Shown here piece after piece: positions 1 to 53,229 of a DNA stretch of 64,000 nucleotides. Source of the stretch: Eledone cirrhosa (taxonomy: Eukaryota); NCBI GenBank assembly GCA_964016885.1, contig OZ024754.1:27838001-27902000 (forward strand). Direction: 5' to 3'. The notes beneath the pieces are model-generated. The model had not been told where the DNA came from. It did not search any database and saw only the letters and a list, made by a program, of their open reading frames with translations. The translations under genes and the position numbers were made by a program. How positions within the stretch are numbered: the first letter of the stretch is position 1; the number at the start of each line of letters is the position of its first letter.

Positions 1-76
1 ACAAAGTGGTATTGGAAATCGAACTTCCGAACTTATGATTGTGAATCAAGCGCTCTAACCACTAAGCTACGTGCTT
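1..76 (-). mobile_element. tRNA-derived SINE head (truncated by window edge)
   Basis: Reverse complement reads ...gtagcttagtggttagagcg...ggaagttcgatttcc (Pol III A and B boxes); resembles the SINE head at 33184. Confidence 0.6.
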
Positions 77-18893: not shown

Positions 18894-18958
18894 TATTTTA
18901 TCTGATGAAAGCACACCATAATTTAACTTGGTGTCCTTGAAATATGTATAATGAAATA
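18894..18958 (+). ncRNA. Type I hammerhead (family F)
   Basis: uauuuuau-CUGAUGA-aagcacacca...uggugucccuu-type stem II-GAAA-uaugua-UA^-augaaaua; lies within inverted repeats 18792-18838 and 18957-19000. Confidence 0.8.
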
Positions 18959-19443: not shown

Positions 19444-19509
19444 TATTTTGTCTGATGAAGGCATAGCATATTGTTAATATGATATCCCCGAAATATATAT
19501 AATGAAATA
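19444..19509 (+). ncRNA. Type I hammerhead (family F)
   Basis: uauuuugu-CUGAUGA-agg...cauauu/aauaug...cccc-GAAA-UAUAUA-UA^-augaaaua. Confidence 0.75.
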
Positions 19510-48027: not shown

Positions 48028-49686
48028 ATGCCGTGAATTATTTTGTTTAATTCCTGGACCCAATTTTTACATATATTTTTTATATTTCAGAGCTAAATAT
48101 TATCATGTTTAACAAAACCGTGTTACTTTTATATTTATTTAAATTCCAATTATCTCAATCGCATTTTTATTATTTGTATTATTTTATTTTATTTTAAATT
48201 TCTTCGCTTCTGTTTCCCTATTTTTTCTGATTTATGTTGTTTTTTAATCGGTATTAATTACTCGGAGGTTTCAACACTGACATTTGCTTTGTGTTTTGTT
48301 CTTTCTTATCTTGAATTAAAAAGTTTTAATTCCTCTTTCACAAATGTTCGCTTTCTTTCTGTTTAACTACTAATTTCCCCTCATATATTTTTCCTTTTAC
48401 TTTGTTCTTTTTCTCTCCTATTGCGATGATTCTCTCAATCTACCTTATTGAAATGGTTTCTTTCTCTTATATTCGCTTAATTTATGACCGCAGAGTCGAT
48501 GGCTTTATTGGCTTTTAACATTAAAAAGAATATTTATATTCGTTTATTTTTGTTCGAATTGGCAGTTTCATTAGTTTAGAGATTCTCAGAGATTCTCAGG
48601 TCGTATTCTTTCCTTTACAATACCAACTTTCCTCAATTCCTTTCAAATTTGAATTATAATTTGTTTACCTGAACACCATGTTAACATGAACAAACTTTTG
48701 AAACCATTTGATGACTTTTTTTTACCAACAGCTTTGCAAAAACGATGGAAGATGTGTGTATATACCTCATTTGGTCACTTACCATGAGAGTATCATGTTC
48801 AACCTATGAACTTTTCAGCCGACACAAGTATATATATATATATATATACGGGGGAGGGTGTATATGTGCACCTCTGGGTGTGTATGCTTTGGTTTTGTGT
48901 ATACATCTTATATCTTTATACGTACATGTGTGCGTTAGTTGGTGTACATGTGTTTTCCATATTTACAGTTAGTAAGAATCATACAGGCAGACAGGCAGAC
49001 ACACAGACAGACAAGTATTATCAAAAATACCACCTGGTGTGCTTTGGTTGATTTCGCGCTTTCGTTTATCTTTTTTATGTGAATAAAGCACACCATTTCA
49101 ATGACATATCAAAGAACACAGTATGGGTTTGATAACAATCGGATTCATATCGATTTGGAAATATCATTCACGAAGAAATAGCTTTGTGAGACATGCTTTC
49201 GAAATACAGATATCGATATATAAACTGATAAACTTTAACTTCTAACCAATCATATTGATTTCTATTCGACAGTATATTCGTATAGTGATTTTTCTCGCAA
49301 AGAAGTAAATCAGATACTCATTCTCTTTAGAGATATATAGAAAGGTATTAAAAAAATAAAATGATGCTTGCATGACTGTATATATAAGGAGTTCTCTTCG
49401 CAACCTAATGGTTGGCATTTCAGTTTCATTGCCCACCCCGTAGGAATGTGTTTACTATAGTAAACACATTCCCACGGGGTGACCACGAGTTGACCAATGC
49501 TTCGTGAACAGAATCTGTATGGCAGAAACTGCATATATTTGTTATATATATATATAAACAGGCAGACACACCCACATATATATATATGTGTGTTTATATA
49601 TGTGTATTTATGTATATGTATGTATATATATATACGGGGTCCTACTCGTTCCTATATATATATATATATATATAGGAACGAGTAGG

Positions 49687-49782
49687 ACCCCGACGGCTGA
49701 GCTCAAGCCGTTTCGACGGCTAATTCTGGACTAAATGAACATTTTTATCCTGGTATATGAATAGCCGAGCTTCTCAGGGGGT
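49687..49782 (-). ncRNA. Variant-core hammerhead (family B)
   Basis: Mirror copy of 52492-52587. Confidence 0.75.
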
Positions 49783-50892
49783 AATTCCATATATGGTAAA
49801 AGTGATTGTCACAAGGATTGGTCAAAAGTTTGTTGTTGAGACACATAATTCTATCATAGCAATTTGTGGAAGGAAGGGGTAGCTGAACCTGCCAGTAGAA
49901 GAAAGAGGGAGAGGGGTGGAGGAAACCCAGTCGTGCGTTGATAGTGCCAACTACAGCAGGGCAGGAGGTCAAGCAAGTATACTAGGGAGGAGGAGGGGGG
50001 TCGAAACAATAAGTAAAACAAAATGGGGGTAAATATATAGAAGAATACCGAGAATGTTAAAAGTATTAAAATAAAATAATAATAAAAAATAAAAAAAATA
50101 AAAACAATTTCTGGTTACTATTCCCTAACGACAGTCATCAAGTCTCTCACTGGTACTGCTAAACTATAGAAAAGTTTACTAGGTGGGACGGAATTATAAT
50201 GAGACCATTTTAAGAGTTAGTAGTAATCAACCGAGTATATCTTACGGTGACAGATCAACAAGTGGGGGGCCAAAATACTAAAGAAACTACCACGAAATAA
50301 TAATTCAGAGTCCCGAGACTAATACGAAATAATTGTTTCTACCCTAGGCACAAGGCCAGCAACCACCCAGTGCAAAAAATAAACTAATACGAAATAATAA
50401 TTCAGAATCCCGAAAATGAATACTAATAGTATCTCTAAGGGTGCGGCTACGATACAAAAATTCTAGTGCAAACTACATAAATGCTCGTACGAAGTATATG
50501 AAAAATTTGATACGGAAATTAATTCAGAATCCCCCCCCCCCCCAAAAAAAATACTGATATAAGAGAAATTAAAGCAAAGATACCACTAAGAAATGTAGAA
50601 AGCACGGAAATGGAGCAGCCATCGGATAAGAAAGCAAGTATCCGAGGTCTATCACATCTGCTATAAAAAACGGAGTCGGCCAATTCTATCATAGAATAGG
50701 GGATGGGGGTGGGGGTACTGAGGCTACAAAGGACCGAGGGGCTGCCTCGGGTGGGCGAGAAAGTGAAAAGGACGACGACAAAGAAGGAGGACTGGGGTGG
50801 AAGGACTAGGAAGGGATGGGGGGAAGAAGGAAATATAGAGGAAGCAATAAAAAGATATAAAAACTCAACCACTATGGAAGAAATAACCTAAA

Positions 50893-51368
50893 TAGCAGTG
50901 GAGAGCCGACCAGGAGGTGCAACTGTCCTGATGGATCCATTTTCCCCCTCGACAACAGATGCAGAGATCGTAATGTGATCGACCAGTGCAACGTGAGGAC
51001 GGACACCTCCAACAAAGCTTATATAGGATTAACCGCATGTGACTTCAAGACCCGGTATACCAACACAGACATACCTTCCGAAACCCGGCCCGGCCTCACG
51101 CCACCACACTTTCGGGCCACATCTGGGACCTCAAGGATAACAATATTACCTATGATCTCACTTGGAGCTTACTGTCCAGAGCCAACTCTTACACGGGAGG
51201 ACGCCGTCCGTGCAATTTATGCTCGGAAGAAACTTTACAAATGCTGTTTTCGACGGACCAACTTCTAAACAAGAAAGACGAACTGGTAACTGCATGCAAA
51301 CACAGATTGCGTAGGACTTACCTCGCCCTCAAACCCCATAATGACCCGGGGGATAGACAAGGGCTGTA
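50893..51368 (+). pseudogene. PLE GIY-YIG endonuclease fragment, frameshifted
   Basis: CNCPDG..FPLDNRC...AYIGLTACDFKTRYTN / LSGHIWDLKD...CNLCSEE...LLNKKDELVTACKH. Confidence 0.85.
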
Positions 51369-52491
51369 ACACCCCACTTGCCGACTTTGTAATGGATAAC
51401 CCCTGCTTGCAAAGGTAGACGTAAGATCTTCTTTTATATCTTTTTATCGCTTCCTCTATATTTCCTTCTTCCCCCATCCCTTCCTAGTCCTTCCACCCCA
51501 GTCCTTCTTCTTTGTCGTCGTCCTTTTCACTTTCTCGCCCACCTGAGGCAGCCCCTCGGTCCTTTGTAGCCTCAGTACCCACACCCCCATCCCCTATTCT
51601 ATGATAGAATTGGCCGACTCTGCTTTTTATAGCAGATGTGATAGACCCCGGATATTTGCTTTCTTATCCGATGGCTGCCCCATTTCCGTGCTTTCTACAT
51701 TTCTTAGTGGTATCTTTGCTTTAATTTCTCGTATATCAGTATTTATTTTGGTGTGGGGGGGGGGGGTTCTGAATTAATTTTCCGTATCAAATTTTTCATA
51801 TACTTCGTACGAGCATTTATGTAGTTTGCACTAGAATTTTTGTATCGTAGCCGCACCCTTAGAGATACTATTAGTATTCATTTTCGGGATTCTGAATTAT
51901 TATTTCGTATTAGTTTATTTTTTGCACTGGGTGGTTGCTGGCCTTGTGCCTAGGGTAGAAACAATTATTTCGTATTAGTCTCGGGACTCTGAATTATTAT
52001 TTCGTGGTAGTTTCTTTAGTATTTTGGCCCCCCACTTGTTGATCTGTCACCGTAAGATATACTCGGTTGATTACTACTAACTCTTAAAATGGTCTCATTA
52101 TAATTCCGTCCCACCTAGTAAACTTTTCTATAGTTTAGCAGTACCAGTGAGAGACTTGATGACTGTCGTTAGGGAATAGTAACCAGAAATTGTTTTTTAT
52201 TTTTGTTATTTTTAATACTTTTAACATTCTCGGTATTCTTCTATATATTTACCCCATATTGTTTTACTTATTGTTTCGACTTCCTCCCCCTCCCTCTCCC
52301 TAGTATACTTGCTTGACCTCCTGCCCTGCTGTAGTTGGCACGACTGGGTTTCTTCCACCCCTCTCCCTCTTTCTTCTACTGGCAGGTTCAGCTACCCCTT
52401 CCTTCCACAAATTGCCATGATAGAATTATGTGTCTCAACAACAAACTTTTGACCAATCCTTGTGACAATCACTTTTACCATATATGGAATT

Positions 52492-52587
52492 ACCCCCTGA
52501 GAAGCTCGGTTATTCATATACCAGGATAAAAATGTTCATTTAATCCAGAATTAGCCGTCGAAACGGCTTGAGCTCAGCCGTCGGGGT
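52492..52587 (+). ncRNA. Variant-core hammerhead (family B)
   Basis: acccc-CUGAGAA-g..cgguuauuc...gaauuagccg.c-GAAA-CGGCU ugagcuc AGCCG-UC^-ggggu. Confidence 0.75.
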
Positions 52588-52678
52588 CCTACTCGTTCCT
52601 ATTACCCACTCTACTACCCTAAATATTGAGTACTTTGGTGCGTTATGGTCCACTTGGTTCCTTACCACATTTCCTTCG

Positions 52679-52763
<85 letters not shown>

Positions 52764-52766
<3 letters not shown>

Positions 52767-53095
52767 CTTTGATAAAGTCTTTCTTTCAAATCAGGATTTG
52801 GACACCATGGCCCACTCAAGTAGAGAGTTATTGTTTGCGGAGACATATCCTGGTGTAGGAGGCTTAACCGGGATTTCTTGAAGGAATTTTTCCAAAGACT
52901 TCTTGAACTTTATGGCGTCTGTTTCTGTCTTAATGTGTTTTGGCGTAATGTTAAAGAGAGCGGGGCCATTTGAGGTGAAATAAGTGTGTGAGTTTGATTT
53001 TTGTTGTGGGCGGATAACAAGGGGCCCAAGCCTTGGGTGTAGTTTAAAGGTGATGCCAACATCATTTGGGCAATGCTGATGGAATATTTTCCACA
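52764..53095 (-). mobile_element. 3' fragment of the CR1-like LINE seen at 6062-8130
   Basis: ORF 52791-53129 closely matches 7821-8045 (GPALFNITPKHIKTETD...PTPGYVSANNNSLL). Confidence 0.85.
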
Positions 53096-53229
53096 TCATC
53101 AGCTGATGAAGCGCTCGCGCACCAGACAATTAGATATCGCCTATATGTATACGTGTGTGTGTATGGTGTATGTATGCATATGTAGATTTATATATGCATA
53201 TGTAGATATGTATATATATATATATATAT

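What the first reader, a model, noticed from the sequence alone, without database searches (positions are those of the whole stretch)
52492..52587. Non-canonical CUGAGAA core in an apparently recently active family (B)
Seen: both full copies (49687 minus, 52492 plus) have CUGAGAA in place of CUGANGA, which can be read as an N7 deletion or G8-to-A. Stem I (acccc/ggggu), stem III and GUC are intact. AGCCGU occurs twice, so ACGGCU can pair either in stem III or in a competing AGCCGU-CGAA-ACGGCU hairpin that sequesters the GAAA box. Inference: a variant core with a built-in conformational switch.
Basis: partly seen in the sequence, partly recalled or inferred. Interest (0 to 1): 0.7.

Follow-up and report, generated by a model that had tools for sequence, protein, structure and literature searches.

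The report
Mismatched-core hammerhead in Penelope retrotransposon
A hammerhead-type RNA motif, predicted to cut itself, at the end of a jumping gene carries a mismatch in its catalytic core that was copied to about 1,400 places before later offspring restored the pair, and short inserts that start exactly at the predicted cut site suggest it likely kept cutting anyway.

Summary
Observation confirmed. Both copies read CUGAGAA, and this is the subfamily consensus (98 of 100 listed), not a private mutation. The motif is the type I hammerhead of a Hydra-clade Penelope-like retrotransposon. No base was deleted. Sister subfamilies read U3-UGA-N7-A8, the known U3-A8 covariant, with position 7 varying freely. 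The window's core is therefore C3/G7/A8, a C·A mismatch. Two trees give one ladder: U3·G8, U3-A8, C3·A8 (1,394 matches), back to U3-A8 in the youngest copies. During the C·A phase the ORF stayed under purifying selection (pN/pS 0.05) and core plus stems did not change. Genome-wide, 94 AT-joined stubs start exactly at the predicted cut, against 6-22 at neighbouring positions. The peak is sharper for U3-A8, but per full motif it is as frequent for C·A, so residual cutting is likely but unproven. The competing hairpin is predicted to dominate only in mid-ladder monomers and to vanish in dimers; it is not a family-wide switch. New variant of a known kind. Earlier scan notes held nothing on this family.

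The parts
52492..52587 (+). Type I hammerhead motif with C3/G7/A8 core; two private changes (C52510T in stem II, G52542A in loop II)
52497..52504 (+). Core C3 U4 G5 A6 G7 A8 A9 then G10.1; C3·A8 mismatch where sister subfamilies have U3-A8
52507..52559 (+). Stem II (52507-12 with 52552-57; G10.1-C11.1 at 52504/52559) and the 39-nt loop II, which varies between subfamilies
52553..52568 (+). Predicted competing hairpin AGCCGU-CGAA-ACGGCU over the GAAA box
52560..52582 (+). GAAA box, stem III with self-complementary loop (UGAGCUCA, 52569-76) and GUC; predicted cut between 52582 and 52583
   Evidence: stubs
52583..52682 (+). Conserved 100 nt after the cut; copies end at about +20 (52602) or +100 (52682), the inferred reverse-transcription start sites and 'tail'
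49687..49782 (-). Second hammerhead copy, consensus-like, in the inverted arm
49672..50862 (-). Inverted 5'-truncated arm of the same insertion
50864..51370 (+). Frameshifted remnant of the C-terminal endonuclease region of the Hydra-type ORF (CxCX5C-position linker with one Cys changed, YIG, CxxC, CxH)
51371..52491 (+). Fast-evolving 3' untranslated region of the element
49635..49654 (+). 20-nt stub in (TA)n starting at C17, one base before the predicted cut
52681..52765 (.). (TA)n target tract at the 3' end; another tract at 49655-49671

Best explanation
This is the type I hammerhead motif in the terminal repeat of a Hydra-clade Penelope-like retrotransposon, and its CUGAGAA core is C3/G7/A8, a C·A mismatch that likely arose by a U3-to-C change in a U3-A8 lineage, was copied through several successive subfamilies and was later restored to U3-A8; it likely left a weakened ribozyme that likely still cut in vivo. 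Shown: the sequences, the counts, the ladder in which C3 is flanked by U3 on both sides, selection on the ORF and on the motif, and the stub peak at the scissile bond. Inferred mechanism: in tandem transcripts two motifs would pair through the self-complementary stem III region into a double hammerhead, which removes the competing hairpin, probably with help from the element's protein. C3·A8 would hold residue 8 as a wobble of the same shape as the U3·G8 pair that the oldest subfamily carried. Cutting would set the mRNA 5' end about 190 nt before the ATG. Slow cutting is tolerated because reverse transcription starts 20 or 100 nt downstream of the cut, so any ORF-bearing insert must be copied from a template whose 3' ribozyme is uncut; cut templates give only 20- or 100-nt stubs.
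For: Core identity: 6,436 family matches, of which C3-G7-A8 1,394, C3 with other N7 49, G8 36, N7-plus-extra-A ancestor 0; oldest subfamily 30 of 39 U3·G8. Ladder: UTR trees with the core masked and an independent ORF tree (100/99 support on the branches entering and leaving the C3 rows sampled). Selection in the C3 phase: ORF trunk 41 synonymous and 7 non-synonymous changes, pS 0.128, pN/pS 0.05; core+stems 0 of 43 sites variable against 20 of 91 loop and flank sites, p=4e-4. Stubs joined to A/T runs start at +1 in 94 cases, -1/-2 in 22, +2 in 7, +3 in 6, +4 in 16. By class, +1 against other positions: U3-A8 55/14, mixed 26/25, near-pure C3 9/12 (p=0.004 against 1/6); 1.84 per 100 full motifs in each class (denominators). 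An extra G occurs in only 9 stubs. At an upstream GGG, 0 of 5 element-matching stubs start at the first G. Dimer of the minus copy: stem II 0.87, inter-molecular stem III 0.93, competing hairpin 0.01. Intact 3,118-bp unit with a 719-aa ORF. PMC11167929: a Penelope-like element's hammerhead is protein-assisted and core mutants do not affect insertion in vitro.
Against: No cleavage was measured, and no RNA data could be laid. PMC9901934 states that in a type III hammerhead all single and double mutants of this region except the C3G/G8C swap had low activity; G8A would fall under that. The core alone is not significantly conserved in the C3 phase (0 of 9, p=0.20). The 100 nt after the cut are equally conserved, so the constraint may come from protein-binding signals. 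Equal per-copy stub rates are also what a cleavage-independent cause predicts. In the near-pure C3 class the peak rests on 9 stubs, two are probable duplicates, and p rises to 0.048 if the two TT|GGGG junctions are counted as CpG decay. Class splits were tallied by eye, and 7 of 100 of that class's full motifs read U3. A distant outgroup rooted the ORF tree on the youngest copies, with a long-branch warning, so the direction of time rests on end-branch lengths. The plus copy itself keeps the hairpin at 0.68 even as a dimer.
Confidence: 0.55

Rival explanations
1. The C3·A8 ribozyme is effectively dead. The element spread because cleavage is dispensable, the fold is kept as a protein-recognition or promoter signal, and the stub peak in C3 classes comes from something else (transcription start at that G, polymerase stalling at the three-way junction, or cutting in trans by U3-A8 transcripts).
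For: Low activity of 3-8 mismatches in vitro (PMC9901934, passage; PMC11167929 for C3G and G8C). Insertion unaffected by core mutants (PMC11167929). Monomer predicted misfolded in 41 of 42 copies. Peak over background falls from 19.6 (U3-A8) to 3.8-5.2 (p=0.002 and 2e-4). Later subfamilies restored U3 and, in the youngest, a stem II pair.
Against: The peak lies exactly on the bond predicted beforehand and persists in C3 classes at the same rate per full motif. Few stubs carry the extra G expected of capped ends (9 against 94; expectation recalled from L1 literature). A stall at the base of stem III would give -1/-2, not +1. No core position drifted over pS 0.13 (not significant alone).
Confidence: 0.27
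2. Register shift: C3 pairs with G7 instead of A8, so the motif works as a core without N7 and with one extra A before G10.1. This is the functional version of the reader's N7-deletion reading, reached by substitution.
For: G7 and C3 appear almost together (93 of 100 early G7 motifs have C3). No amplified C3 subfamily with another N7 was seen (49 scattered against 1,394), while N7 changed repeatedly in U3 phases. An extra nucleotide between 9 and 10.1 is typical of these ribozymes (PMC4209133).
Against: Homology fixes G7 as position 7. About four N7 changes in U3 phases against none in the C3 phase is too few to tell. PMC3088659 notes that the A6-N7 backbone contacts U4 and that changes there are detrimental. 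U3-G7-A8 is itself abundant.
Confidence: 0.1
3. The AGCCGU-CGAA-ACGGCU hairpin is a selected regulatory switch that keeps the 3' ribozyme off while it serves as template.
For: It dominates the predicted monomer fold and forms as soon as ACGGCU is transcribed (0.90-0.94). It is released in dimers. A full 6-bp hairpin arises in only 3.4% of arm shuffles. An uncut template is needed for ORF-bearing inserts.
Against: It is negligible in the oldest stages tested and a minority fold in the youngest, most abundant ones. It became dominant through loop changes that shortened stem II. There are no double-sided changes in the stems. In the Hydra rows of PMC8557442 File S2 that I inspected by eye the arms are not complementary. 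Stub rates per motif are no lower in the hairpin-dominated class.
Confidence: 0.08

Closest known systems
U3-A8 core covariant of type I hammerheads in Penelope-like elements (Cercyon of Schistosoma mansoni, PMC4209133; natural U3-A8 also in PMC3088659)
   Same: Type I topology in the terminal repeat, A at position 8, long helix II, short helix I, G10.1-C11.1, palindromic helix III region. Most of this family (81 of 100 listed) has U3.
   Different: The window's subfamilies have C3 opposite A8 as an amplified consensus, and an older subfamily has U3·G8. I found neither described in the passages read.
Hydra-clade Penelope-like elements and their hammerheads (PMC8557442, section 11 and File S2)
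   Same: RW(R/K) and DKT motifs, CxCX5C linker, CxxC and CxH, C-terminal endonuclease, (TA)n target, inverted 5'-truncated arm, optional tail, hammerhead near the 3' end.
   Different: All 26 Hydra rows of File S2 have CUGA-N-GA; their loops II are 3-10 nt and helix III is short. Here the core is Y3-N7-A8, loop II is about 39 nt and helix III has 5-6 bp.
Poseidon element of Anolis carolinensis (PAc; PMC11167929)
   Same: Two 3' ends downstream of the cut site (internal initiation, tail), so the template carries an uncut ribozyme; AT-rich targets.
   Different: PAc has C3-G8 and its ribozyme overlaps the ORF start; the authors found no RNA ends at the cut site. Here the cut is about 190 nt before the ATG and genomic stubs pile up at it.

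Membership tests
Type I hammerhead ribozyme | Three helices in type I order around CUGA..GA, GAAA and UH | tested here: met
   (98% of 153 cells paired; no double-sided changes, so no covariation support)
Type I hammerhead ribozyme | Watson-Crick pair between core positions 3 and 8 | tested here: not met
   C3·A8 in the window's subfamilies; met as U3-A8 in sister subfamilies
Type I hammerhead ribozyme | U4 G5 A6, A9, G12 A13 A14, A15.1-U16.1, H17, G10.1-C11.1 | tested here: met
Type I hammerhead ribozyme | Match to an Rfam hammerhead model | tested here: not met
   no hammerhead family listed, even at E up to 10
Type I hammerhead ribozyme | Self-cleavage 3' of H17 | tested here: inconclusive
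   Indirect only: 94 stubs at +1 against 6-22 nearby; no kinetics
Type I hammerhead ribozyme | Loop I-loop II tertiary contact | not tested
   Not examined
   Same spacing in all stages aligned; 0 matches to a C3 version with one more base; that spacing was not searched for U3
Hydra-clade Penelope-like element | Single ORF with C-terminal endonuclease; RWK-like, DKT, CxCX5C, CxxC, CxH motifs | tested here: met
   719-aa ORF in L178 read against PMC8557442 section 11; Pfam and PDB gave no hit, so RT and GIY-YIG labels rest on these motifs
Hydra-clade Penelope-like element | (TA)n insertion, pseudo-LTR, inverted truncated arm, tail | tested here: met
Hydra-clade Penelope-like element | Placement inside the Hydra clade in an RT phylogeny | not tested
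   No reference Hydra proteins were put in a tree
Dimer-acting PLE hammerheads | Palindromic helix III region allowing a double hammerhead | tested here: met
   Prediction only: 19-mer duplex -30.7 against hairpin -7.1 kcal/mol; inter-molecular stem III 0.72-0.97 in 7 of 8 motifs, 0.26 in the window's plus copy
Conserved conformational switch | Both folds kept across the family, with covariation | tested here: not met

The most novel reading that the evidence does not exclude
C3·A8 is a working natural hammerhead core, either a protonated C·A wobble matching the U3·G8 pair of the oldest subfamily or a register-shifted C3-G7 pair. One retrotransposon lineage then records a walk U·G, U-A, C·A, U-A through the catalytic pair, and the stubs that start at the scissile bond are a genomic record that Penelope-type hammerheads cut in vivo, usable as a fossil activity assay for any such family.
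Probability: 0.35. Interest if true: 0.72.

Novelty: new variant of a known kind. Interest (0 to 1): 0.52.

Why it matters
[quoted passage not shown] This family offers a natural allelic series at the catalytic 3-8 pair (U·G, U-A, C·A) in a nearly constant scaffold, each form amplified by an ORF under purifying selection, plus a countable footprint at the predicted cut. If C·A cuts, search descriptors that demand a 3-8 pair miss working ribozymes. If it does not, a transposon made over a thousand copies with a dead ribozyme and then repaired it, which bounds how much the ribozyme matters.

Tried and rejected
N7 deletion with an extra A was my first reading (note); rejected. Loop III 'variants' looked like sister families; most of the 20 fetched were short rearranged inserts, 5' junctions or point mutants. 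A second repeat containing CTGAGAAG (L099-L102) has a canonical CUGACGA core upstream in L101, with CTGAGAAG falling in stem II (read by eye). Rooting with other Hydra families (three ORF rows about 40% identical) gave a long-branch warning and is not relied on. In the 97-row UTR tree, 11 rows formed a clade caused by junction sequence and were ignored; that sample was deliberately enriched for rare cores, so its change counts mean nothing. For the same reason the core columns of the stage majorities are biased; cores were taken. Early by-eye stub tallies were replaced by a script on 90 junctions (+1 was the mode in all three classes) and by fixed patterns. The G-run control is small (6 loci). 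Pfam, PDB and Rfam gave nothing relevant. Papers likely to hold rates for 3-8 mismatches or further variants (Nelson and Uhlenbeck 2008, Przybilski and Hammann 2007, Lünse et al. 2017) were not held, and the per-mutant data of PMC9901934 are outside its supplements, so no C3·A8 rate is quoted. Earlier scan notes concern a different, rearranged hammerhead family.

Full report
1. Observation. Both motifs are present as described; a generic type I scan of the window found them and one other inverted pair. In plus-strand coordinates: stem I 52492-96/52583-87, core C3-A9 52497-503, G10.1 52504, stem II 52507-12/52552-57, C11.1 52559, GAAA 52560-63, stem III 52563-68/52576-81, C17 52582. A flank pattern that left the core free found 503 genomic matches; 98 of the 100 listed read CUGAGAAG. 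The core is the subfamily consensus.

2. The element. The two motifs end the arms of a 1.2-kb inverted repeat around a broken endonuclease remnant, set in (TA)n. A relative (L178) is an intact 3,118-bp unit: motif, about 190 nt, a 719-aa ORF, 3' UTR, motif. The ORF has RWR, DKT, CxCX5C, CxxC and CxH, the marks listed for the Hydra clade of Penelope-like elements (PMC8557442, section 11). Pfam and PDB gave no hit and I built no tree with reference elements, so the clade call rests on motifs and structure. Copies end about 20 or 100 nt after the predicted cut, like the two internal initiation sites of the Anolis element (PMC11167929). It follows that an ORF-bearing insert is copied from a template whose 3' ribozyme is uncut.

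3. What the core is. Freeing position 3 gave 6,436 matches. Of the 100 listed, 81 have U3, with G, A, U or C at position 7 in 41, 15, 15 and 10 (by eye); nearly all have A8. That is the U3-A8 covariant known from PMC3088659 and PMC4209133. Exact counts: C3-G7-A8 1,394; C3 with another N7 49, scattered over subfamilies; G8 36. A C3 version with one more base, the ancestor an N7 deletion would need, was not found (0). An old subfamily has U3·G8 in 30 of 39. Matches count arms, not insertions. So the window's core is C3/G7/A8. All 26 Hydra rows in File S2 of PMC8557442 are canonical. A whole-word search of the paper library for C3-A8, C3A8 and U3A8 showed no occurrence in the 30 of 43 papers listed, and searches gave no report of such a core; three likely papers were not held.

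4. History. With the core masked, UTR trees (73 and 97 rows) and an ORF tree (20 rows) give one ladder: U3·G8, old U3-A8, C3·A8 over several stages with the window's copies near one end, then U3-A8 again. C3 is flanked by U3 on both sides whatever the root. Direction comes from end-branch lengths (old U3 0.037-0.061; early C3 0.036; later C3 0.013-0.027; last U3 0.0025-0.007); a distant outgroup disagreed and carried a long-branch warning. In the C3 phase the ORF trunk gained 41 synonymous and 7 non-synonymous changes (pS 0.128, pN/pS 0.05). Core plus stems changed at 0 of 43 sites and loops plus flanks at 20 of 91 (p=4e-4); the core alone is not significant (p=0.20). Stages S4, S6 and S7 are each represented by one ORF.

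5. Did it cut? If the template is cut, reverse transcription from +20 or +100 runs off at +1 and leaves a stub starting at GGGGU. Stubs preceded by eight A/T bases start at +1 in 94 cases, -1/-2 in 22, +2 in 7, +3 in 6 and +4 in 16. Downstream bases tell the source class. By eye, +1 against the rest: young U3-A8 55/14; mixed class (1,063 C3 and 348 U3 motifs) 26/25; near-pure C3 9/12; 4 stubs fit no class. The peak is sharper for U3-A8 (p=0.002 against near-pure C3), yet each class has 1.84 stubs at +1 per 100 full motifs, and the U3 part of the mixed class explains about 6 of its 21 excess stubs. One normalisation says weaker, the other says equal; neither says absent. Weak points: 26 of the 94 read TT|GGGG and could be decayed CpG junctions (near-pure C3 then p=0.048), some rows are duplicates, and a transcription start, a stall or trans cutting are not excluded. 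An extra G is rare (9), and an upstream GGG shows no pile-up (0 of 5). The window's own stub starts at -1.

6. The hairpin. It is predicted in both window copies (0.94, 0.81) and outcompetes stem II once ACGGCU is made. Across 85 intact copies its median probability is 0.01 and 0.05 in the oldest stages tested (n=2 each), 0.25-0.55 next, 0.81 in the window's stage (41 of 42 above 0.5), 0.71-0.77 just after, and 0.33 and 0.23 in the two last stages. It rose when loop changes shortened stem II. The stems never covary. Stem III with its loop is nearly palindromic, and a dimer of the minus copy folds as a double hammerhead with the hairpin at 0.01; the plus copy, with a private stem II change, keeps it at 0.68. 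So it can act as a monomer brake in some stages but is not a conserved switch.

7. Mechanism. Shown: sequences, counts, ladder, selection, stub peak. Inferred: cutting in tandem transcripts as a protein-assisted dimer (by analogy with PMC4209133 and PMC11167929), setting the mRNA 5' end; tolerance of a slow core because insertion uses uncut template; and a C·A wobble standing in for the pair. The general acid is the 2'-OH of residue 8 (PMC6155905); that C·A+ and U·G wobbles share a shape is recalled. Against this, PMC9901934 reports low activity for all mutants of this region but the G-C swap in another hammerhead. I give 0.55 to weakened but cutting, 0.27 to dead, 0.10 to register shift and 0.08 to a selected switch.

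8. Papers seen. PMC4209133 and PMC11167929: first two of four parts of the text, no figures or supplements. PMC8557442: passages, section 11, supplement part 2 and a term search. PMC3088659, PMC9901934 (plus a search of supplement 2), PMC6155905, PMC6765202, PMC11014351 and bioRxiv 10.64898/2026.07.22.740005: passages only. Unseen figures and supplements, above all the alignments of PMC4209133, may already show C3·A8 examples.

9. Verdict.

Noticed in passing
window 19447-19506 (+), 19285-19226 (-), degenerate copy near 18900: A second hammerhead-like repeat with a canonical CUGAUGA core, as an inverted pair beside (TA)n.
   Followed up: no
L043, L045, L046, L057: Short inserts that lack the 23 nt between the two AGCCGUCG repeats (GAAA box and stem III), likely template jumps during reverse transcription; about 11 of 100 rows have this junction, not all fetched.
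   Followed up: partly
L099-L102: A further repeat family with a hammerhead-like layout; L101 reads CCTG-CUGACGA ... CGAAAC ... GUC-CAGG with a long stem III region.
   Followed up: no
L037:225-1463, L180:1827-3449, L189:1302-2904, L034:1-762: Other Penelope-like families about 35-45% identical in protein lie next to or inside copies of this one.
   Followed up: partly
G000:C1:91476780-91487431: Four head-to-tail motifs of the youngest U3-A8 subfamily at a 3,542-bp period, a candidate source of tandem transcripts.
   Followed up: no
L059, L060, L079, L123: An old U3-A8 branch has one more C in the run before U3, so slippage in this run could be how position 3 flips between U and C.
   Followed up: no
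L178:3012-3094: The youngest subfamily gained an A10.2-U11.2 pair and a G·U in stem III together with a return to the hammerhead as the predicted main fold.
   Followed up: partly
window 52780-53130 (-): Decayed coding stretch that resembles the C-terminus of a LINE reverse transcriptase (read by eye; resemblance recalled, not tested).
   Followed up: no
window 14-69 (-): Borderline Rfam tRNA match (29.2 bits), possibly a SINE head.
   Followed up: no
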